DNA of 64,000 nucleotides from positions 7,706-71,705 of the forward strand of contig CAYSEQ010000002.1 of NCBI GenBank assembly GCA_964430475.1, read 5' to 3'. Under the pieces are notes generated by a model, which was not told the origin of the DNA, made no database searches, and saw nothing but the letters and a program-made list of their open reading frames with translations. Origin of the DNA: an uncultured Gammaproteobacteria bacterium. Its GTDB lineage: Bacteria > Patescibacteriota > Microgenomatia > UBA8517. Below are positions 2,637 through 9,445 of this stretch, piece after piece (positions within the stretch are counted from its first letter, which is position 1; every line of letters starts with the position of its first letter). The position numbers were made by a program, and so were the translations under genes.

Positions 2637-2819
2637 TTGAGGTATTCTAGATTATGGAAGAGCAAAAAGACGAAAGCCTTCAACAATGAACTTATCGATG
2701 ATCTTCTCTTCTACAGTACACAAAGACCACATAATTCCCTAGGCAATCAGGAACCAATGAGAGCTGTAGTAGAATATTTTAAGAAGTCTAATATGTATTG
2801 GACCAATACATGGGGTTGA
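2637..2819 (+). pseudogene. IS transposase C-terminal fragment (end of a DDE integrase core, …YSTQRPHNSLG…)
   Basis: 60-aa ORF matching only the extreme C-terminus of IS3/IS481-type transposases. No upstream catalytic region. Confidence 0.6.
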
Positions 2820-2925
2820 CTGGAAACTCCAATTCAGCTCCTATCAAAATAGGAGGATATCTAGTTGTAATATTCAATATCCTAAATGAAAACAAAACAA
2901 GAAAAGAGAGGAGGTGACAAAAAGA

Positions 2926-3117
2926 ATGGGTGTTGAGAATCCTTCAATTGAAGTGGGTATTGAGCGAAATTCTAAAGTAAAAGCTGAACTGACTCAGCGC
3001 TCAAAAATTGATTTAGTCGAAGCAAAAGATCCCCTAATAGAAGCCAACGGATTTAACGGAACATGTAGTAATAGTGGCAATGGTTGTACAGGATCTTGTA
3101 ACCACTCATCGAAATAA
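2926..3117 (+). CDS. TOMM/LAP precursor peptide: ~45-aa leader plus Cys/Ser/Thr/Gly-rich core (…NGFNGTCSNSGNGCTGSCNHSSK)
   Basis: Small ORF 65 bp upstream of the YcaO gene. Strong SD (GGAGGTGA) 9 nt before the ATG at 2926; the ORF track starts at an in-frame GTG at 2914. The C-terminal 22 aa are 70% C/S/T/G/N. Confidence 0.7.
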   Translation: MGVENPSIEVGIERNSKVKAELTQRSKIDLVEAKDPLIEANGFNGTCSNSGNGCTGSCNHSSK

Positions 3118-3182
3118 AAAACTCTGCCACTAGTAGTAATAAAAGGCATGCGTAGATAATTCCGTCAGGAGGTGATGTCTTT

Positions 3183-4526
3183 ATGGATAGACTTATTCTC
3201 TCTTGGGAGAAAGAACTTGATAATCACCAACTGTTAAAGAATATAAATAATCTCATAAACGATAAGTATATTGTTAAAAATTTTAGTAAATCTCCGAGAT
3301 ATTATGATGAACCAAAGCTATACCAATATTCAGTACAAATTGCGGATACAAGATATAAGTCAGATGCAGATAGAGCTGCTGGTTATAGCGGGGGCGCCTC
3401 TTTTGATGAGAGCAAGGCAATAATTAAAGCTGTTTGTGAAGCAGTAGAAAGGTATTGTCTTGCAATCTATAAAGAAAAAGATCTCATCAGAGCATCTTAC
3501 AGTAAAATAAAAAACAGAAGTATTCCCCTAAAAAACATTATTTCTTTTTCCGCTACCCAGTTGAAAGCGAAAAGTCTATCCAGTTGTAAATATACTGATA
3601 AAACAAATTTTTTCTGGGCAAATGGTAAATCCATATTTGACAATAAGCCAGTTTTAATTCCAGCACAACTAATTTTCGTTCCATATAATTTCAAAAAAGA
3701 GAAAATAATTCGATTGCCAATAAGTACTGGTGCAGCATCTGGTACTTCTTTTACAGGAGCTTTATTGCGGGGAATCTTAGAAATAATTGAGAGAGATGCC
3801 TTTATGATCCATTACTTATCTAATGTTTGTGGAGAGCTTATTGATTTTTCCGACAATGATCGACTTTTAAGCATTAAAAATTATTTTAAAAAATATAGAT
3901 TGGATTTATATTTAATAAATCTACCTACAGACCTAAAAATTTATACATTTTTAACCTTAATTATCGATAAGACAGGTGTGGGTCCAGCCGTCTCAGCGGG
4001 TTTAAAAGCTGGTCTTGATTCACTTGAAACAGCTATTGGCTCCATAGAAGAAGGATGGCATTCAAGACCTTGGATAAGAGACGAGCTTAACAAAAAGCCT
4101 GATTTAAATAAGATTATTTCTGAGGGAAAAACTTTGCATGATATTAAAAAAAGAGGGCTATTTTGGTCTTCAATAGAAATGATAAAGTATGTCGATCCCT
4201 GGATAAATAATAAACGAGTTATAAGATTTAACAAGTTACGTTCTCTTTCTAAAGGTAAGCTCATAAGTGATCTGCATTATATTTTAAGTCTTCTGAGATC
4301 AAAGGGACATAATGTCTATTATGTTGATATAACGAGACCCGAAGTAGAGAAATACAGATTTAAAGTTTTGAAGGCGGTAATCCCTTCTTTACATCCACTA
4401 TATCTGGATGAACCATACCCATATTTAGGAGGTAATCGTATTTATCAATTACCTGTAGGGCTAGGCTACAAAGAAAATGCGTTGACAGAATCGGAACTTA
4501 ATCGGACGCCCCATTTCTTTTTATGA
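3183..4526 (+). CDS. YcaO-domain cyclodehydratase (TOMM D-protein type)
   Basis: Canonical YcaO ATP-binding motif …SGGASFDESKAIIKAVCEAVERYC…. Pro-rich C-terminal motif (…LHPLYLDEPYPY…). SD AGGAGGTGA upstream. Confidence 0.85.
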   Translation: MDRLILSWEKELDNHQLLKNINNLINDKYIVKNFSKSPRYYDEPKLYQYSVQIADTRYKSDADRAAGYSGGASFDESKAIIKAVCEAVERYCLAIYKEKDLIRASYSKIKNRSIPLKNIISFSATQLKAKSLSSCKYTDKTNFFWANGKSIFDNKPVLIPAQLIFVPYNFKKEKIIRLPISTGAASGTSFTGALLRGILEIIERDAFMIHYLSNVCGELIDFSDNDRLLSIKNYFKKYRLDLYLINLPTDLKIYTFLTLIIDKTGVGPAVSAGLKAGLDSLETAIGSIEEGWHSRPWIRDELNKKPDLNKIISEGKTLHDIKKRGLFWSSIEMIKYVDPWINNKRVIRFNKLRSLSKGKLISDLHYILSLLRSKGHNVYYVDITRPEVEKYRFKVLKAVIPSLHPLYLDEPYPYLGGNRIYQLPVGLGYKENALTESELNRTPHFFL

Positions 4527-5263
4527 AGAATCAGAGTAAGTATTATTTTTACAAATTTCATGAAGCTTCAAGTATAAAAAAAGCTAAAAGGTTGCCCTCC
4601 CGCGATAAATGGCCGGAGTCTTGGAAGAGAATTTATTTTAAGGGATATCCTAGATTTGAAAGAATTTATCTGAATAAATCTGCCTGGTTTAATAAAAATT
4701 ATGATTTGATTAACACAATTCTTGAGCGCAGAAGTGTAAGAGAATCTAACTTACCAATGTTTTCCAAGGATGATTTATCTCTGCTTTTATTAGGCGGTGC
4801 TATTACGAAAACTGACTCTAATGTTTTTTATGACTCTTATAGATCGTATCCTTCTGCTGGTGCAAGATACCCTTGTGAAATTTATATTTTTTTAAATAAG
4901 GTTAAAAATTTGAAGGGCGGTCTATATCACTACCATGTCAGGACTCATTCTCTGGAATACCTCTGGCCTATAAATTCCGAAGAAATAAAGAGATGCTTTC
5001 CTAATCAAAATTTCGTAACAAGAAGTAAGGCAATTGTTATAATTACAGCCATTATGAGCAGAAATATTAGTAAATATTCAGAACGTGGCTATAGATTTGC
5101 TTTGTTGGAAGCTGGGCATATAGGCCAAAATGTTTGCCTTATTGCTACCGCTATGGGTATGAGTGCATGTCCAATAGGGGGGTTTCATGACAAAAATCTA
5201 GCAGATTTGATTGACATCGACTCTAATGAAGAGCTGCCTTTATATTGCGTTTCAATTTTATGA
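4523..5263 (+). CDS. SagB-type FMN-dependent dehydrogenase (nitroreductase superfamily; TOMM B protein)
   Basis: N-terminal RRSVRES and the diagnostic …YPSAGARYPCEIY… motif of SagB-like azoline oxidases. 4-nt overlap with the YcaO gene (translational coupling). Confidence 0.8.
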   Translation: MKNQSKYYFYKFHEASSIKKAKRLPSRDKWPESWKRIYFKGYPRFERIYLNKSAWFNKNYDLINTILERRSVRESNLPMFSKDDLSLLLLGGAITKTDSNVFYDSYRSYPSAGARYPCEIYIFLNKVKNLKGGLYHYHVRTHSLEYLWPINSEEIKRCFPNQNFVTRSKAIVIITAIMSRNISKYSERGYRFALLEAGHIGQNVCLIATAMGMSACPIGGFHDKNLADLIDIDSNEELPLYCVSIL

Positions 5264-5285
5264 TAACCTTATGAGAGAAAGAGAT

Positions 5286-7006
5286 ATGCCTAAACCCATA
5301 GAAAAAAAACGACGCATTATGGGGTTTTTGCAACGAACCTTTATCTTTCAAGAGGGGGGAAGGAGTTACTAAGAGAAGCTACATTCTCTATTTATCCTGG
5401 TAGAAAGGTCGCTTTAATTGGGAGAAATGGTAGTGGCAAGACTACCTTGTTAGAGACGATCAACGCTGTAGCAAGGGGTCAAGAGTTACCTGAAGGGGTA
5501 GATGTACGTGGTTCCCTCACAATTCCAAGAAGGACAAAGACTGGCTATCTTCCACAAAGTGTACAAGTAAGTTTCTCCGGAACTGTAAAAGAGTACTTAG
5601 ATTTTTGCGCGGAAGAGGTATCACAAGTTTTCAACAGATATCATGAACTTGAAGAAAAATTAGCTAAGAGAACAGATAATGAGGTCATAAATGAGTTTGG
5701 GGAAATTTTGGGGAAAATGGCCGATCTTAATGCATGGGATTTACCTAAGAATAGAAGATTGATTTTAGAAGGTCTGGGATTATCTGATGAATATTTAAGC
5801 CGAAATATTAAAGAGATTAGTGGAGGGGAATCTACCAAAGTTGCTCTTGCAGGAATTCTATTATCTTCGCCAAACCTAATACTTCTTGACGAGCCGACAA
5901 ATAATTTGGATCCCAGAAGTTTAATCTTTCTTGAGAATTGGATCAGAAATGATATCTCGTCTTTGCTTCTGGTTTCTCATGATAGAGAGTTTTTGGATAG
6001 AACTATAGATGAGATTATTGAGATAGATGAAGCAACCAGAAAAGTTTTGCTTTTTGGAGGCAACTATTCTTTTTATTTTCAAAAAAAGAAAGAAAATTAT
6101 GAGGCTCAACTAAGACAGTTTGAGGAGCAACAAAGAAAAAGAAGGCAGCTCGAAGCAGAAGCTGATAGATTGAGATCGGAAGCCAGAAGATTGGAATCAA
6201 TTTCTACAAACGCCTTCTACAGAGCAAAAGGTGCGGGTTTGGCGAGGCGAGCAAGAGTTCAATTAGAACGGATAGAAAGAGAGCTTACTCAAATTCCTAA
6301 ACCCGAGCCACCTAAAAAACCCACAATCACTGTATTTGAGACAGAAGTAAGACAAGATTTATTAGTGCAAGCAGAAGATTTATCATTCTCTTATACAAAT
6401 AATAAAAAACTGCTCTCTGAAGTGTCATTTATTGTCCATGGTGGCGAAAGAATAGGTATAATTGGGCCTAATGGTTCGGGGAAAACTACTTTGCTAAAGC
6501 TTCTTTTGGGTGAAATACAGCCCACATCAGGCAACGTAACTTTAGCAAGAAGTGCAGTTGTTGGTTATCTTCCCCAAGCAACGACAATTAGCAACCCAAA
6601 AGAGAACGTTTTAGATTTTATTAGGAAAAGAGCATCTCTTTCAGAAGATGATGCTAAAACGTTACTTGGTAAAGTGCTTTTCACCGATCCATCTCATCTC
6701 CGAGTTGGAGATTTTAGTGCCGGCGAGCTGAGAAGAGTTGAACTCGTAGGACTATTTGCTTCTAAACCAAACATCATTTTCCTTGATGAGCCGACTAATC
6801 ATTTAGATATTTATACGATAGAAATGTTAGAAGATGCATTAGATAATTACAAGGGAGGTTTAATAGCAGTATCTCATGATGAGAGATTCCTTAAAAATAT
6901 ACGTCCAAATAGAATAGTTATATTCGAAGGAGAGGGGAATTTGGTAAGCCGGGTTGTCAAGAAGTCCGACGATGTTTCAAAAATTTTTGAAGAAGTGTTC
7001 AGTTGA
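5286..7006 (+). CDS. ABC-F family ATPase: two ABC domains, no TM, charged inter-domain linker. The reading frame is interrupted near the 5' end at an A8 run
   Basis: Walker A GRNGSGKTT (domain 1) and GPNGSGKTT (domain 2). Signatures LSGGE and FSAGE. Arg/Glu-rich linker RQFEEQQRKRRQLEAEADRLRSEARRLE. The ATG at 5286 (after SD GAGAGAAAGAGAT) reads MPKPIEKK, then the frame switches at AAAAAAAA (5302-5309) into …TTHYGVFATNLYLSRGGKELL…. Confidence 0.75.
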
Positions 7007-7424
7007 TATCAAAATGAACTAATCAACACAAGATAGCCTTTAAAGTTATCTAACAAAAGACAAGGTTAGTATTAAGACATTTCTCTAATATGGATACTTA
7101 TACACTCTATAAGCCTAAGCAATCGATAAAGTCAGCAGTTGGAGCTTCCTGGTAGAAAAATTCAGAAGAAGAGAAACATCGCTGACACTCCTATCAAACC
7201 ATGTCAGCAAGAAGGTAGAAAATTCCACCTTCCTCGGAAATTACTCCTAGAGAAGTAATCTCTCATATCGGTTTACTAAGGGTATAAACCCAATATGGGT
7301 GATATTAATTAATATACTAGCACAAAAGAGGTTGGCATTTTGGGAGTTTAACAACATTGTAAAAGACTCAAAGTAATTCACATATTTAAAATAAAAGAGT
7401 TAAAAACACCACAAGATAATCCAA

Positions 7425-7603
7425 TGGATGCAGGGTTCAAGAGGACCGTTAAAGAAGGATTCGTGGAAGTCAATGAGTATTTTGAAGAACACCTGGTAGA
7501 TGCTGATTTAACCAAAGCCAACAATGAACTTAGAGGATGGCTTGTATTCTACAACTTCACCAGACCCCATCAAGCACTTAACTATCTAACACCAATAAGG
7601 TAA
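7425..7603 (+). pseudogene. IS transposase fragment, C-terminal end of an integrase core (…FYNFTRPHQALNYLTP…)
   Basis: Short ORF with only a terminal rve-domain motif. Confidence 0.6.
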
Positions 7604-7699: not shown

Positions 7700-8180
7700 C
7701 CTTATCAATAAGTCCCGTAGGTCTTACAATACAAGAAGAATGTATGTTGCCAACCTGTTTTTGAGTTTATCAAAGGCTTAAGAGAAAAATACCCAAGATT
7801 AGGTAAGGAGAAAATCAAAATTCTTCTTGATCAATACTGTCAAGAAAACAATCTCAAAACTATTTCTGTCTCCAAAATTGGCAGGATTATCAAAAAGAAC
7901 AACTGGTTTTTATACCTTGGAAAAAGAACTAAACAGACTGTTAAACAAAACAAGAAAAGAGTCTTTGGTTGGTTAGGTTGATAACCCAGGAGATTTATTC
8001 CAGATAGATACCCTGATTAGATTTGAGCATAAAGTCAAAAGATACATCCTCACTGCCTGTAATGTTGTTTCTAAGTTTTCTTTCGCCTTTGCCTATAAAT
8101 CTCATAGCTCTAAACAACCCTCTGATTTTAAGGTCTATGCTAGGATGATTTTGGAATTTTACAGGAAGAAATTGGATTAA
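7700..8180 (+). pseudogene. Decayed IS transposase N-terminal HTH region and start of the DDE domain, broken over several frames
   Basis: Fragments YPRLGKEKIKILLDQYCQENNLKTISVSKIGRIIKKN and IPGDLFQIDTLIRFEHKVKRYILTACNVVSKFSFAFAYKS lie in different frames with stops between them. Confidence 0.55.
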
Positions 8181-8352: not shown

Positions 8353-9445
8353 CTAAAGATACCTTTCAAGCTCAAGGGATGTTGACCTTTCTTCACCTCC
8401 AAAAACTATGAACTCTTCGCCTGGGTTTTTGGGTTCTGTAAATCTTGGGCTCAATACTTCAACCCCTTTATCGTCCAACTGTTTTCTAATTTTCAAAATA
8501 TAATCTAAGTACTTACGGAAGCTTCCCCTTATTGTTACATGGCGAAACTCTTGTCTTGCAACTCCATCTATGAGGTTTGAGTTAGAGGGAATTATTGTCT
8601 CAATTTTATACTTCTGACAAATTGCTTGAGCTATAGCACTACAAGCCCTTGCTCCATGCATCCATCTGGGGTTATCGGGCATAAGTGCCTCTAATTCGGA
8701 CAGGGTTACTTTCGAAAATATTTCATTATTTCTTTTAGCAAAGTCATCAAAAGAAATAAGACTTGGGTGGTCTTTGTCGTTAAATAATTTATTATCTTGT
8801 GGTTTATATGAAGCAATTCGCATATAAGTTAGTTCGCCGCCAGAGTAGAAAGCTAATTTGACTTTATTTTGCAAAGAGGGGAGTTTTTTCTTTATAAATT
8901 CAACTGTTTTTTCGAGACTAAATTTGGAAACTTCTTCATTTATTTCCTGAAATTCAGTCAAAATTGTTCCGACCCCTATTTCAATGTTTTTCGTCTCAAT
9001 CGCCTCTTTTCCTAACATCACAACAAGTTCAGTTGAACTACCGCCAATATTAATTAGAAGAAGTGGATCTTTGACATTTTCGTATTTTCCGACAAGTGTA
9101 ACTTGGAGATAGAAGCTTTCAAGGTCATGCTCTATGATATTAAAGAAAAGGCCAGTTTTCTGGAAAAATTCATCGATAAATTCACGTCTTGTCTTGGGAG
9201 AAAGTTTGCGATAAAGGGCAATCGCATAAAGCTTAATTAGTGTTTTAGGATATTTGTTTTTGACCTCAGAGGTTAATTCATAAAGCTGTTTTTTGTTTTC
9301 TTCTGAAATTCCCTTGTCAGGGTCAAAATTGTCTTTGAATGGAATAGAGCGGCTTAGCAGAAGTTTGGGAGAATTAGAAGAATTCTATAAATCTTAACGG
9401 TAGATGAGCCTATATCAACAAGGATTTTTTATTGTTTCGTTGCAT
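8353..9445 (-). pseudogene. ppx: Exopolyphosphatase / guanosine pentaphosphate phosphohydrolase (Ppx/GppA family) with two apparent frameshifts in the 5' region
   Basis: Minus-strand translation gives MQRNNKK | ILVDIGSSTVKIYRILLILP | KLLLSRSIPFKD…LLLINIGGSSTELVVMLGKEAIE… (Ppx/GppA ATPase motifs). The frame changes at an AAAAAA run (~9425) and at CCCAAAC (~9365). Confidence 0.6.

What the first reader, a model, noticed from the sequence alone, without database searches (positions are those of the whole stretch)
2914..7006. Compact LAP/TOMM cluster (precursor, standalone YcaO, SagB dehydrogenase) directly followed by an ABC-F ATPase
Four co-directional genes sit within 4.1 kb. The first is a 63-65-aa peptide whose last 22 residues are Cys/Ser/Thr/Gly/Asn-rich. 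The second is a YcaO with the ATP-binding motif SGGASFDESKAIIKAVCEAVERY. The third is a SagB-type FMN dehydrogenase with the PSAGARYP motif; it overlaps the YcaO gene by 4 nt. An ABC-F gene starts 23 bp after it. Known YcaO plus SagB pairs install azoles in linear azol(in)e peptides such as microcin B17, plantazolicin, klebsazolicin and phazolicin. The apparent host looks like a reduced-genome, CPR-type bacterium, where such clusters are rarely characterised. The cluster is also unusually minimal. This is the best candidate for a new bioactive-peptide system in the window.
Basis: partly seen in the sequence, partly recalled or inferred. Interest (0 to 1): 0.85.

Follow-up and report, generated by a model that had tools for sequence, protein, structure and literature searches.

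The report
Minimal azole-peptide cluster with ABC-F
This is a real four-gene cluster for a small thiazole/oxazole-modified peptide in a likely CPR (Patescibacteria) bacterium. The general cluster type is already known there, but this sub-family has a near-invariant peptide core and is always linked to a ribosome-binding ABC-F ATPase, which suggests an untested ribosome-targeting antibiotic with its own ribosome-protection gene.

Summary
A 63-aa precursor (2926-3117), a YcaO (3183-4526), a SagB-type dehydrogenase (4523-5263) and an ABC-F (5271-7006) lie head to tail. YcaO scores 240.9 on TIGR03604 (cut-off 219). SagB scores 136.8 on TIGR03605 (cut-off 78).

One correction: in this assembly the ABC-F frame is broken in an A8 tract (5302-5309). 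An independent assembly has A9 and an intact 578-aa protein.

The same four genes recur in 7 other metagenomic loci with unrelated flanks. The enzymes are only 46-65% identical, yet the core C-x-N-S-G-x-x-C-x-G-S-C-N-x-x-S is 12-16/16 identical, with synonymous codon turnover. So it is a real, selected RiPP precursor family.

No E1-like/RRE partner, peptidase or exporter is present. The YcaO model (pLDDT 96) covers only the YcaO half of LynD.

YcaO+nitroreductase LAP clusters in CPR were already reported (Sharrar 2020, 110 clusters), so the kind is known. What I found no report of is the tight ABC-F linkage. ABC-F relatives at 50% identity or more, wherever context could be read, all sit beside YcaO-SagB.

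Best reading: a partner-independent azole synthetase makes a ribosome-targeting LAP, and the ABC-F protects the producer. The immunity and target steps are inferred, not shown.

The parts
2926..3117 (+). Precursor peptide gene (63 aa: MGVENPSIEVGIERNSKVKAELTQRSKIDLVEAKDPLIEANGFNGTCSNSGNGCTGSCNHSSK), with SD GGAGGTG at 2910-2916
   Evidence: Called as a 63-aa gene in an independent assembly. Homologous small ORFs sit next to YcaO in 7 other loci. No database homologue by word-based search except itself.
3007..3027 (+). Leader motif I-D-L-V-E-A-K (residues 28-34). Family consensus is (I/K/E)(D/E)-L-x-E-A-(K/R). It is the candidate recognition element for the partner-less enzymes.
   Evidence: It is the only alignable leader segment among the 8 precursors. 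A related motif (D/E)-A-(K/R)-(E/P)-F occurs in leaders of the wider CPR family: 23 of 35 candidates against 1.5 +/- 1.2 in shuffles. The pattern was defined post hoc.
3064..3114 (+). Core peptide CSNSGNGCTGSCNHSSK (Cys47, Cys54, Cys58). These are the predicted sites of thiazole formation, and possibly oxazole formation at Ser/Thr.
   Evidence: 12-16 of 16 residues are identical in 8 loci, while the enzymes are 46-65% identical. Codon-pair differences are 216 synonymous against 92 non-synonymous. C1, S4, C8, G10, S11, C12, N13 and S16 are invariant.
3183..4526 (+). YcaO cyclodehydratase, single-domain (no fused E1-like/RRE domain)
   Evidence: PF02624 1.1e-45. TIGR03604 240.9 > 219.25. The profile matches only the YcaO half of MusD/TruD/LynD, chain residues ~362-781. 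AlphaFold model pLDDT 96.1; Foldseek best hit is LynD 4v1v with TM 0.79 per query and 0.49 per target.
4523..5263 (+). SagB-type FMN-dependent azoline dehydrogenase; its start overlaps the YcaO stop (ATGA)
   Evidence: TIGR03605 136.8 > 78.4. PF00881 9e-20. PDB relatives by sequence include McbC 4.5e-14 and the thiazoline oxidase CyaGox. It directly follows YcaO in about 80 of 84 related loci.
5271..7006 (+). ABC-F ATPase gene (two NBDs plus linker, no membrane domain), frame-shifted in this assembly. Frame 1 runs 5271-5372; the rest is open from 5294 to 7006.
   Evidence: With one A restored, the 578-aa product scores 406 on NF000355 'ribosomal protection-like ABC-F' (cut-off 380). Walker A/B, signature and H-loop are intact in both NBDs across 8 orthologues.
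5302..5309 (+). A8 homopolymer where the ABC-F reading frame breaks (A9 in an independent assembly)
   Evidence: Alignment of the window with Logan contig L001. The NCBI protein record is the truncated 519-aa ORF (P0123).
2637..2819 (+). Decayed transposase fragment (rve_3 C-terminus) upstream of the cluster
   Evidence: Weak PF13683 hit, 0.0095. Partial DNA similarity to the downstream fragment.
7424..7603 (+). Decayed transposase fragment (rve_3 C-terminus) downstream of the cluster, followed by more transposase-like debris to about 8150
   Evidence: PF13683 1.2e-07. Sequence reading. A 19-nt exact repeat lies at 2890-2908 and 7943-7961.

Best explanation
This is a functional-type biosynthetic operon for a linear azole-containing peptide (LAP/TOMM).

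Proposed mechanism:
1. The 63-aa precursor is recognised through its leader, probably via the conserved DLxEA(K/R) motif. Recognition would be directly by the YcaO and/or the dehydrogenase, because no E1-like/RRE partner exists.
2. The single-domain YcaO uses ATP to cyclodehydrate the three invariant cysteines of the C-terminal core CSNSGNGCTGSCNHSSK to azolines. It may also act on some Ser/Thr, for example the invariant G-S-C and the C-S / C-T pairs, which could give bis-heterocycles.
3. The SagB-type FMN enzyme oxidises the azolines to azoles.
4. The fourth gene, an ABC-F ATPase, belongs to the unit. It is most likely the producer's self-protection factor: a ribosome-binding ATPase that dislodges the product from the ribosome. 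That implies the mature peptide inhibits translation at the peptidyl-transferase centre or exit tunnel, as klebsazolicin and phazolicin do.

Status of each step:
- Shown here: gene identities, family membership of YcaO and SagB, absence of a partner domain or gene, conservation and selection of the core, and recurrent linkage to ABC-F.
- Inferred: which residues are modified, leader recognition without an RRE, ABC-F as immunity, and the ribosome as target.
- Unknown: leader removal and export. No gene for either is in the cluster.
For: Enzyme identity.

Precursor family: 8 loci share the core at 12-16/16 identity, although the enzymes are 46-65% identical and the flanking genes are unrelated. 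The flanks are SecA/IS debris here, FtsW/L21 in L086, lasso-peptide genes in L084, and polyprenyl synthase/KsgA/TyrRS in L003. Every invariant core residue is encoded by multiple synonymous codons.

ABC-F belongs to the unit:
- It is present in 8/8 loci of this core family.
- Its start overlaps or abuts the SagB stop, by -4 nt in L003, L084, L085 and L086.
- In L085 the precursor lies after the ABC-F, so the ABC-F is internal to the cluster.
- It is also found with other CPR LAP cores in L172, L012 and L041.
- It is absent from the roughly 70 other YcaO-SagB loci, which carry M16 or S9 peptidases or nothing recognisable.
- ABC-F homologues form a discrete family at 40-62% identity, well above generic Uup-like ABC-Fs at 33-36%. 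All members at 50% identity or more whose context could be read sit beside YcaO-SagB.

ABC-F character:
- The repaired protein passes NCBIfam 'ribosomal protection-like ABC-F', 406 > 380.
- Both NBDs are catalytically intact.
- The linker tip is 11 residues longer than in EttA and YheS.

Precedent: LAPs that block the ribosomal exit tunnel exist (klebsazolicin, phazolicin; PMC6783444). ABC-F genes inside antibiotic gene clusters act in self-resistance or signalling (LmrC; PMC8546547).
Against: - No chemistry or activity was measured.
- The ABC-F does not reach the cut-off of any specific resistance subfamily (Msr, Vga, Lsa, Sal, OptrA, producer type).
- Its closest solved relative by sequence is the housekeeping YheS.
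- Its linker is 13 residues shorter than that of the resistance factor VmlR/ExpZ.
- It keeps the NBD1 'arm' region, which aligns with EttA and YheS.
- ABC-F relatives at 47-48% identity in Dormibacteraeota-like contigs are not next to YcaO.
- Known ribosome-targeting LAPs use exporters, not ABC-Fs, for immunity.
- The core's resemblance to klebsazolicin (CSNS...CTG) is no better than composition-matched shuffles; 23% score as well.
- Characterised azoline-forming YcaOs of LAP pathways need an E1-like or ThiF-like partner (PMC6783444). Activity of this partner-less pair is therefore unproven.
- In this particular assembly the ABC-F is frame-shifted.
Confidence: 0.7

Rival explanations
1. The LAP cluster is real, but the ABC-F is not an immunity factor. 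It would be a dedicated translation or regulatory factor. It might rescue ribosomes stalled on the Gly/Ser/Cys/Asn-rich precursor mRNA or peptide, such as the (SGGG)x8 spacer in L003. Or it might sense the product and tune expression, as LmrC does for lincomycin.
For: The architecture is closer to housekeeping ABC-Fs: it has an arm region and its closest solved relatives by sequence are YheS and EttA. No specific ARE model is passed. LmrC gives a precedent for a signalling ABC-F in a gene cluster (PMC8546547). One precursor has a long repetitive Gly/Ser spacer.
Against: Most precursors of the family have no repetitive spacer. Many CPR LAP precursors with even more extreme Cys/Pro/Gly cores lack any ABC-F. 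A regulatory role would still imply that the product acts on the ribosome.
Confidence: 0.15
2. The ABC-F is an ordinary housekeeping translation factor of these bacteria that merely happens to lie next to the LAP genes. The peptide's target is something else, such as DNA gyrase as for microcin B17, a membrane, or metal binding.
For: The local similarity of the core to the microcin B17 core is marginally better than shuffles; 3.5% score as well. The SagB is related to McbC. No second ABC-F is seen in the 64-kb window, so this could be the genome's only copy.
Against: The linkage survives complete turnover of flanking genes and a change of gene order. The genes overlap by 4 nt. The ABC-F tracks the LAP even where YcaO identity falls to 34% (L172). 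About 70 related CPR/DPANN YcaO-SagB loci have no ABC-F within several kb. The 64-kb window is too small to say whether another ABC-F exists elsewhere.
Confidence: 0.1
3. In this particular genome the cluster is a decaying, horizontally acquired remnant and makes no product. The ABC-F is a pseudogene and the block sits in a patch of dead insertion sequences.
For: There is a frameshift at A8. NCBI annotates only the truncated 519-aa ORF. Transposase fragments lie on both sides, with a 19-nt repeat.
Against: Precursor, YcaO and SagB are intact, with good ribosome-binding sites. An independent assembly (Logan, run SRR11582147) has A9 and an intact gene. So the break may be an assembly or consensus error, or a minority variant. 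GC content of the block (0.357-0.364) matches the window.
Confidence: 0.2
4. The YcaO does not make azolines on the small peptide. It would instead install a thioamide or amidine, or modify a ribosomal protein, with the ABC-F reflecting a ribosome-related housekeeping role.
For: JGI annotates relatives as 'ribosomal protein S12 methylthiotransferase accessory factor'. There is a secondary hit to the McrA-thioamidation YcaO model, 93 bits. Partner-less YcaOs are known for thioamides (MJ1094).
Against: The thioamidation model is far below its cut-off (93 vs 365), whereas the SagD model is passed. A SagB-type dehydrogenase, which only makes sense for azoline oxidation, is fused in register in about 80 of 84 loci. 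A Cys-rich precursor is always adjacent. The closest structures are cyanobactin heterocyclases. No TfuA or sulfur-transfer gene was seen among the neighbouring genes.
Confidence: 0.03

Closest known systems
CPR LAP clusters described bioinformatically by Sharrar et al. 2020 (mBio; PMC7298704), e.g. Microgenomates_ANG_785: YcaO + nitroreductase + peptidase + 84-aa precursor
   Same: Same host radiation. Same adjacent YcaO-nitroreductase pair with a small Cys/Ser-rich precursor and no annotated partner protein. That paper counted 110 such clusters in 93 CPR genomes, 89 of them with the nitroreductase next to YcaO. My 80 GTDB loci reproduce this picture.
   Different: That cluster type carries a peptidase. 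M16 peptidases are in 22 of my loci and have Pro/Cys-rich cores. The present sub-family has no peptidase, has an ABC-F instead, and has a distinct near-invariant core. The ABC-F association is not mentioned in the passages retrieved from that paper, nor in any paper of the searchable library.
Klebsazolicin (klpACBDE) and phazolicin (phzEACBD), ribosome exit-tunnel-blocking LAPs
   Same: They are linear peptides with thiazoles/oxazoles made by a YcaO (D) and an FMN dehydrogenase (B). They are the precedent that such peptides inhibit translation.
   Different: They require an E1-like C protein, and their immunity is an exporter (KlpE/PhzE), not an ABC-F. There is no X-X-(S/T)-P amidine motif here. 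Core similarity to KLB (SQSPGNCASCSNSASANCTGGLG) is not significant.
Microcin B17 synthetase McbBCD and precursor McbA
   Same: The core is rich in Gly/Ser/Cys/Asn, with G-S-C and C-S motifs that give bis-heterocycles in MccB17 (established knowledge). McbC is among the closest solved relatives of the dehydrogenase by sequence. McbD is a detectable relative of the YcaO.
   Different: MccB17 needs the McbB scaffold, which binds the leader. Its immunity is McbEFG and its target is DNA gyrase. None of those genes is here.
Cyanobactin heterocyclases LynD / TruD / MusD
   Same: These are the closest solved structures to the YcaO domain: profile E 1e-39 to 3e-43, Foldseek TM 0.75-0.80 per query.
   Different: Those enzymes are about 780 aa, with N-terminal RRE and E1-like domains that bind the leader. 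The present 447-aa protein aligns only to their C-terminal YcaO half.
Stand-alone YcaOs (bottromycin YcaOs; archaeal McrA-thioamidation YcaO MJ1094)
   Same: They act without E1-like or ThiF-like partners (PMC7136475). They are single-domain YcaOs of similar size.
   Different: Bottromycin enzymes make one thiazoline and a macroamidine (PMC7136475). From my own knowledge, they act on a follower-peptide substrate. MJ1094 makes a thioamide. Neither is paired in register with a SagB dehydrogenase.
ABC-F self-resistance/signalling proteins in antibiotic producers (OleB, CarA, TlrC, SrmB, LmrC) and ARE ABC-Fs (VmlR, MsrE, LsaA, VgaA)
   Same: They are soluble two-NBD ATPases encoded inside or beside an antibiotic gene cluster. 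The present protein passes the generic 'ribosomal protection-like ABC-F' model and aligns full-length to the producer-type model.
   Different: The known cases protect against polyketide, lincosamide or streptogramin drugs, not RiPPs. Here all specific subfamily scores are far below cut-off (for example 301 vs 800 for the producer type). The linker is of intermediate length.

Membership tests
LAP / TOMM biosynthetic gene cluster | YcaO-domain cyclodehydratase of the SagD type | tested here: met
   TIGR03604 240.9 bits vs cut-off 219.25. PF02624 1.1e-45. YcaO fold at pLDDT 96, best match LynD.
LAP / TOMM biosynthetic gene cluster | Conserved ATP/Mg-binding acidic motifs of YcaO | tested here: met
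   E86, E89, R90 (ExxER) and E200, E203, R204, D205 (ExxERD) are invariant in 50 relatives. Their mapping to ligand contacts rests on homology, not on a bound structure.
LAP / TOMM biosynthetic gene cluster | SagB-type FMN dehydrogenase | tested here: met
   TIGR03605 136.8 vs 78.4. McbC and thiazoline oxidases are among the PDB relatives by sequence.
LAP / TOMM biosynthetic gene cluster | Adjacent precursor with leader and Cys/Ser/Thr-rich core | tested here: met
   The 63-aa ORF has its core conserved in 8 loci under purifying selection.
LAP / TOMM biosynthetic gene cluster | E1-like (C) or Ocin-ThiF-like (F) partner carrying the leader-binding RRE, fused or separate | tested here: not met
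   No extra domain in YcaO or in SagB (aligns to McbC 37-257). No such gene is enriched in 84 neighbourhoods. No match in the 64-kb window to the E1-like ORFs of remote relatives. A partner encoded elsewhere in the genome cannot be excluded.
LAP / TOMM biosynthetic gene cluster | Azol(in)e rings in the product (-18/-20 Da per ring) | not testable with these tools
   Needs heterologous expression and mass spectrometry.
Antibiotic-resistance (ARE) / ribosomal-protection ABC-F | Two ABC nucleotide-binding domains joined by a helical linker, no transmembrane domain | tested here: met
   PF00005 x2 plus PF12848. Motifs are intact in 8 orthologues.
Antibiotic-resistance (ARE) / ribosomal-protection ABC-F | Passes a curated ribosomal-protection ABC-F model | tested here: inconclusive
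   The generic NF000355 model is passed by the repaired protein (406 vs 380). It is also passed by 3 of the 4 orthologues tested. The truncated window ORF fails (360.9). All specific subfamily models (Msr, Vga, Lsa, Sal, OptrA, CplR, producer type) are far below cut-off.
Antibiotic-resistance (ARE) / ribosomal-protection ABC-F | Extended inter-domain linker (ARD) able to reach the drug site | tested here: inconclusive
   +11 residues at the hairpin tip relative to EttA and YheS, and -13 relative to VmlR/ExpZ.
Antibiotic-resistance (ARE) / ribosomal-protection ABC-F | Confers resistance by displacing a ribosome-bound drug | not testable with these tools
   Needs MIC shift, in vitro translation rescue and cryo-EM.
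Klebsazolicin-type LAP | N-terminal X-X-(S/T)-P motif for the amidine ring, and homologous core | tested here: not met
   There is no Pro in the core. The local alignment to KLB is no better than 23% of shuffles. The motif definition comes from PMC6783444.
Mobile element cargo (composite transposon) | Bracketing intact IS copies or terminal repeats | tested here: inconclusive
   Only decayed rve_3 fragments lie on both sides, plus a 19-nt exact repeat. No long repeats were found. No match in plasmid records.

The most novel reading that the evidence does not exclude
This would be the first RiPP family whose self-immunity is an ABC-F ribosome-protection protein. A two-enzyme azole synthetase would recognise its leader through a short DLxEA(K/R)-type motif, without any RRE/E1-like partner. 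It would make a roughly 17-20-residue tri-thiazole peptide that blocks the ribosome at the peptidyl-transferase centre or exit tunnel. Ultra-small CPR bacteria would use it against hosts or competitors, while a dedicated new ABC-F clade clears it from their own ribosomes.
Probability: 0.4. Interest if true: 0.8.

Novelty: new variant of a known kind. Interest (0 to 1): 0.6.

Why it matters
If the inference holds, four things follow.
1. The cluster points to a new ribosome-targeting peptide scaffold whose core has been frozen by selection across lineages whose biosynthetic enzymes are only about 50% identical.
2. It points to a new clade of ABC-F protection factors linked to a RiPP. That would extend resistance-gene-guided genome mining to LAPs.
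3. The YcaO-SagB pair would be the smallest azole-installing machinery known to work without a leader-binding partner. That is attractive for peptide engineering and raises a clear mechanistic question about leader recognition.
4. It would give a concrete, testable handle on chemical warfare by CPR bacteria, whose biology is almost entirely inferred from genomes.

If the ABC-F link proves incidental, the finding is one more member of the CPR LAP clusters already catalogued in 2020.

Tried and rejected
- Word-based protein search with the precursor found only itself. Relatives had to be found by reading ORFs next to YcaO homologues.
- The metagenome scan with the single YcaO found nothing. The second scan, with the ABC-F alignment, was swamped by generic ABC-Fs at 34% identity or less because the patterns were Walker-B motifs. 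Neither helped.
- The klebsazolicin resemblance (CSNS...CTG) looked attractive but is compositional. It was rejected as evidence of homology. Plantazolicin and goadsporin showed no similarity.
- Searches for a transcription attenuator or terminator after the precursor gene, and for promoters, gave nothing above shuffled controls.
- Rfam and tRNA scans of the window were empty.
- PADLOC gave no defence-system match beyond generic ABC ATPase similarity.
- The plasmid collection had no DNA match.
- The composite-transposon idea is unsupported. The two rve_3 fragments are only distantly similar and no long terminal repeats exist.
- An E1-like partner elsewhere in the window was not found.
- I first placed the ABC-F frameshift at the G6 run (5354-5359). 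Comparison with the independent assembly showed it is the A8 run at 5302-5309.
Examples are P0183 with P0115 on a 179,377-bp contig and P0180 with P0052 on a 5,506-bp contig.

Full report
**1. What is in the sequence**

Between 2914 and 7006 there are four co-directional ORFs on the + strand.

- **Small ORF.** It most plausibly starts at ATG 2926, with GGAGGTG 9 nt upstream, and encodes 63 aa. An independent gene call on another assembly gives the same 63-aa product. Its last 22 residues, GFNGTCSNSGNGCTGSCNHSSK, are 19/22 C/S/T/G/N.
- **Second ORF (3183-4526, 447 aa).** It is a YcaO. Pfam PF02624 gives 1.1e-45. The curated SagD-family model TIGR03604 is passed (240.9 bits, cut-off 219.25). The thioamidation and kinase-type YcaO models are far below their cut-offs.
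- **Third ORF (4523-5263, 246 aa).** It overlaps the second by ATGA and passes the SagB-family dehydrogenase model TIGR03605 (136.8 against 78.4).
- **Fourth gene.** It is an ABC-F, with two ABC_tran domains plus the ABC_tran_Xtn linker.

**2. A correction to the observation**

The ABC-F is not intact in this window. The first Walker A motif and everything after it are in another frame.

Aligning the window with the Logan assembly of run SRR11582147 shows a single difference. That assembly carries the identical YcaO. The difference is A8 (5302-5309) in the window against A9. With A9 the gene encodes an intact 578-aa ABC-F starting 8 nt after the SagB stop.

The NCBI protein for this contig is the truncated 519-aa ORF (P0123). 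I cannot tell whether this is an assembly error, a population variant, or a lesion rescued by slippage.

**3. The small ORF is a real precursor**

A word-based search found no homologue of the peptide. Reading the DNA next to YcaO homologues did.

YcaO relatives at 48-65% identity were traced to seven other contigs: L002, L003, L004, L084, L085, L086 and L089. Each has a small ORF ending in the same core:

| Locus | Core |
|---|---|
| window, L086 | CSNSGNGCTGSCNHSSK |
| L084 | CDNSANGCTGSCNHSSK |
| L002 | CANSGDRCTGSCNHSS... |
| L085 | CTGSGNGCTGSCNHSS |
| L003 | CSNSGNPCGGSCNRCSK |
| L004 | CTNSGNGCTGSCNRCSG |
| L089 | CSNSGNGCTGSCNRCSK |

- The 16-residue core is 12-16/16 identical. YcaO, SagB and ABC-F are 48-65%, 46-64% and 45-62% identical.
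- At the DNA level the core codons differ mostly synonymously: 216 synonymous against 92 non-synonymous codon-pair differences. C1, S4, C8, G10, S11, C12, N13 and S16 are invariant although they use all their synonymous codons. So the peptide sequence itself is under strong purifying selection. This is not recently shared DNA.
- The leaders are barely alignable except for (I/K/E)(D/E)-L-x-E-A-(K/R).

**4. The wider family**

A scan of one genome per GTDB species returned 268 relatives, and I kept the best 80. In these plus the context loci, YcaO is directly followed by the SagB gene in about 80 of 84 loci.

- **Hosts.** Most are Patescibacteria: Daviesbacteria, Roizmanbacteria, Gottesmanbacteria, Woesebacteria, Shapirobacteria, Giovannonibacteria and Saccharibacteria. 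Some are DPANN archaea, Nitrospinaceae and others.
- **Precursors.** Upstream small ORFs have very diverse Cys-rich cores, such as Pro/Cys-rich, CxxC-rich and DCxxSC-rich. Many leaders carry a (D/E)-A-(K/R)-(E/P)-F-like motif, found in 23 of 35 candidates against 1.5 +/- 1.2 in shuffles. The pattern was defined post hoc.
- **Third genes.** A neighbourhood clustering found only three recurrent ones. An M16 peptidase is in 22 loci. An S9 peptidase is in two loci. The ABC-F is the third.
- **Partner protein.** No E1-like or ThiF-like partner is enriched. Such ORFs appear only beside remote relatives (L014, L069).

**5. No partner domain**

- The 50-sequence YcaO profile matches only the C-terminal YcaO half of the cyanobactin heterocyclases MusD, TruD and LynD (chain residues about 362-781), and the stand-alone MJ1094.
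- An AlphaFold model (pLDDT 96.1, pTM 0.94) superposes on LynD with TM 0.79 normalised to the query but 0.49 to the target. The whole 447-aa protein is therefore one YcaO domain.
- The dehydrogenase aligns to McbC residues 37-257, which leaves no room for an RRE.
- This pair is thus a partner-less azole synthetase by gene content. Whether it is active alone is untested.

**6. The ABC-F belongs to the unit**

- It is present in all eight loci of this core family, although the flanking genes are entirely different.
- Its start overlaps the SagB stop by 4 nt in four loci.
- In L085 the precursor lies downstream of the ABC-F.
- It also accompanies three other CPR LAP core types. These are L172 (YcaO only 34% identical, ABC-F 52%), L012, and L041, where the order is ABC-F, precursor, YcaO.
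- The remaining roughly 70 YcaO-SagB loci have none.
- A database search with the repaired ABC-F shows a discrete family at 40-62% identity, followed by a drop to generic Uup-like proteins at 33-36%. Members at 50% identity or more whose context I could read are all LAP-linked.
- Two members at 47-48% identity (one annotated Dormibacteraeota, the other unnamed) are not LAP-linked.

**7. What kind of ABC-F**

- The repaired protein passes NCBIfam NF000355 'ribosomal protection-like ABC-F' (406 against 380), as do three of four orthologues tested. It is far from every specific resistance subfamily.
- By sequence its nearest solved relatives are YheS, VmlR/ExpZ and EttA.
- Its linker hairpin is 11 residues longer than in EttA and YheS and 13 shorter than in VmlR.
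- Both ATPase sites are intact.
- Sequence alone therefore does not decide between a housekeeping and a protective role. The genomic linkage is the argument for a dedicated role.

**8. Mechanism proposed**

The leader docks directly on YcaO and/or SagB. YcaO, using ATP, cyclodehydrates the three invariant Cys and possibly flanking Ser/Thr. SagB oxidises the azolines to azoles.

The product inhibits translation, and the ABC-F clears it from the producer's ribosomes. Ribosome-targeting LAPs exist (klebsazolicin, phazolicin), but they use exporters for immunity and need an E1-like protein. ABC-Fs inside antibiotic clusters are known for non-ribosomal drugs (LmrC).

The steps 'ABC-F = immunity' and 'target = ribosome' are inferences. 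I put them at roughly 0.4-0.5, against about 0.9 for 'genuine LAP cluster'. Leader removal and export are unexplained, because there is no peptidase or transporter in these clusters.

**9. Comparison with what is known**

LAP clusters with adjacent YcaO and nitroreductase in CPR genomes were reported in 2020: 110 clusters in 93 genomes, with the example carrying a peptidase (PMC7298704).

The 2020 review of translation-targeting RiPPs explicitly excluded stand-alone-YcaO clusters from its mining (PMC7136475). In the searchable library I found no paper linking YcaO or LAPs with ABC-F. One irrelevant paper merely contained both words.

The apparent CSNS...CTG similarity to klebsazolicin (sequence from PMC10125368) is not significant.

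**10. Context and loose ends**

The cluster sits between SecA and a stretch of decayed transposase fragments, with a second fragment just upstream and a 19-nt exact repeat. Base composition does not stand out. Neighbouring genes are housekeeping. No RNA families, tRNAs, attenuators or terminators of note were found.

**11. Verdict**

This is a real LAP cluster and a new variant of a known kind. The interesting and testable part is the ABC-F-linked, core-invariant, partner-less sub-family. Interest 0.6.

Noticed in passing
window 5302-5309: The A8 tract frame-shifts the ABC-F. An independent assembly of run SRR11582147 has A9 and an intact gene. NCBI annotates only the truncated 519-aa ORF. This could be an assembly error, a population variant, or a poly-A lesion rescued by transcriptional slippage.
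   Followed up: partly
window 2637-2819, 7424-7603, ~7770-8150; repeat 2890-2908 = 7943-7961: Decayed integrase-core (rve_3) fragments lie on both sides of the cluster in the same orientation, with further transposase-like debris downstream. A 19-nt exact repeat has one copy just upstream of the precursor's ribosome-binding site. This suggests past IS activity around the cluster, but no intact element or long terminal repeats.
   Followed up: partly
L084 925-2646: In a sister locus, lasso-peptide-type genes (a small ORF, a PqqD-like protein and an Asn-synthase-like cyclase) lie directly upstream of the LAP+ABC-F cluster. That makes two RiPP systems side by side in a CPR-type contig.
   Followed up: no
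L003 7731-7970 and 15341-17332: This orthologous precursor carries an (SGGG)x8 spacer between leader and core. About 3.5 kb downstream lie a 7TM-transglutaminase gene and an ATP-grasp (ATPgrasp_ST) gene, possibly another peptide-modification system.
   Followed up: no
L006-L053 (22 loci), e.g. L033 7869-9155: A large sister group of CPR YcaO-SagB clusters carries an M16 peptidase right after SagB. Its precursors have Pro/Cys-rich cores (for example PCKPPPCGAPPPPCGVPPPC) and a DAKEF leader motif. Another group (L087, L088) has an S9 prolyl-oligopeptidase and an ABC-2 exporter.
   Followed up: partly
L172 3468-7746: The ABC-F here is 52% identical to the window's, although YcaO (34%) and SagB (39%) are much more diverged and the core differs (SSSCAACSHSGCHGNCR). 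The ABC-F clade may move between LAP families, or it may evolve more slowly.
   Followed up: partly
L014 4833-5922: An E1-like/ThiF-like ORF lies upstream of YcaO in a contig labelled Bathyarchaeota. It appears split into two frames. It shows that remote relatives of this YcaO family do have a partner protein.
   Followed up: no
record titles of L007, L016, L019, L020, L022 and others: Many GTDB representative MAGs carrying this CPR-type gene pair are titled 'uncultured Gammaproteobacteria bacterium' (co-assembly bins). The labels look like placeholders and should not be read as taxonomy.
   Followed up: no
window 8353-9021 (-): A 222-aa ORF just beyond the IS debris has no Pfam or PADLOC match.
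   Followed up: partly
window 1-64000: There are no tRNA genes or Rfam matches in 64 kb. GC skew is positive in every 2-kb bin and most large ORFs are on the + strand, consistent with a single replichore segment of a small genome.
   Followed up: no
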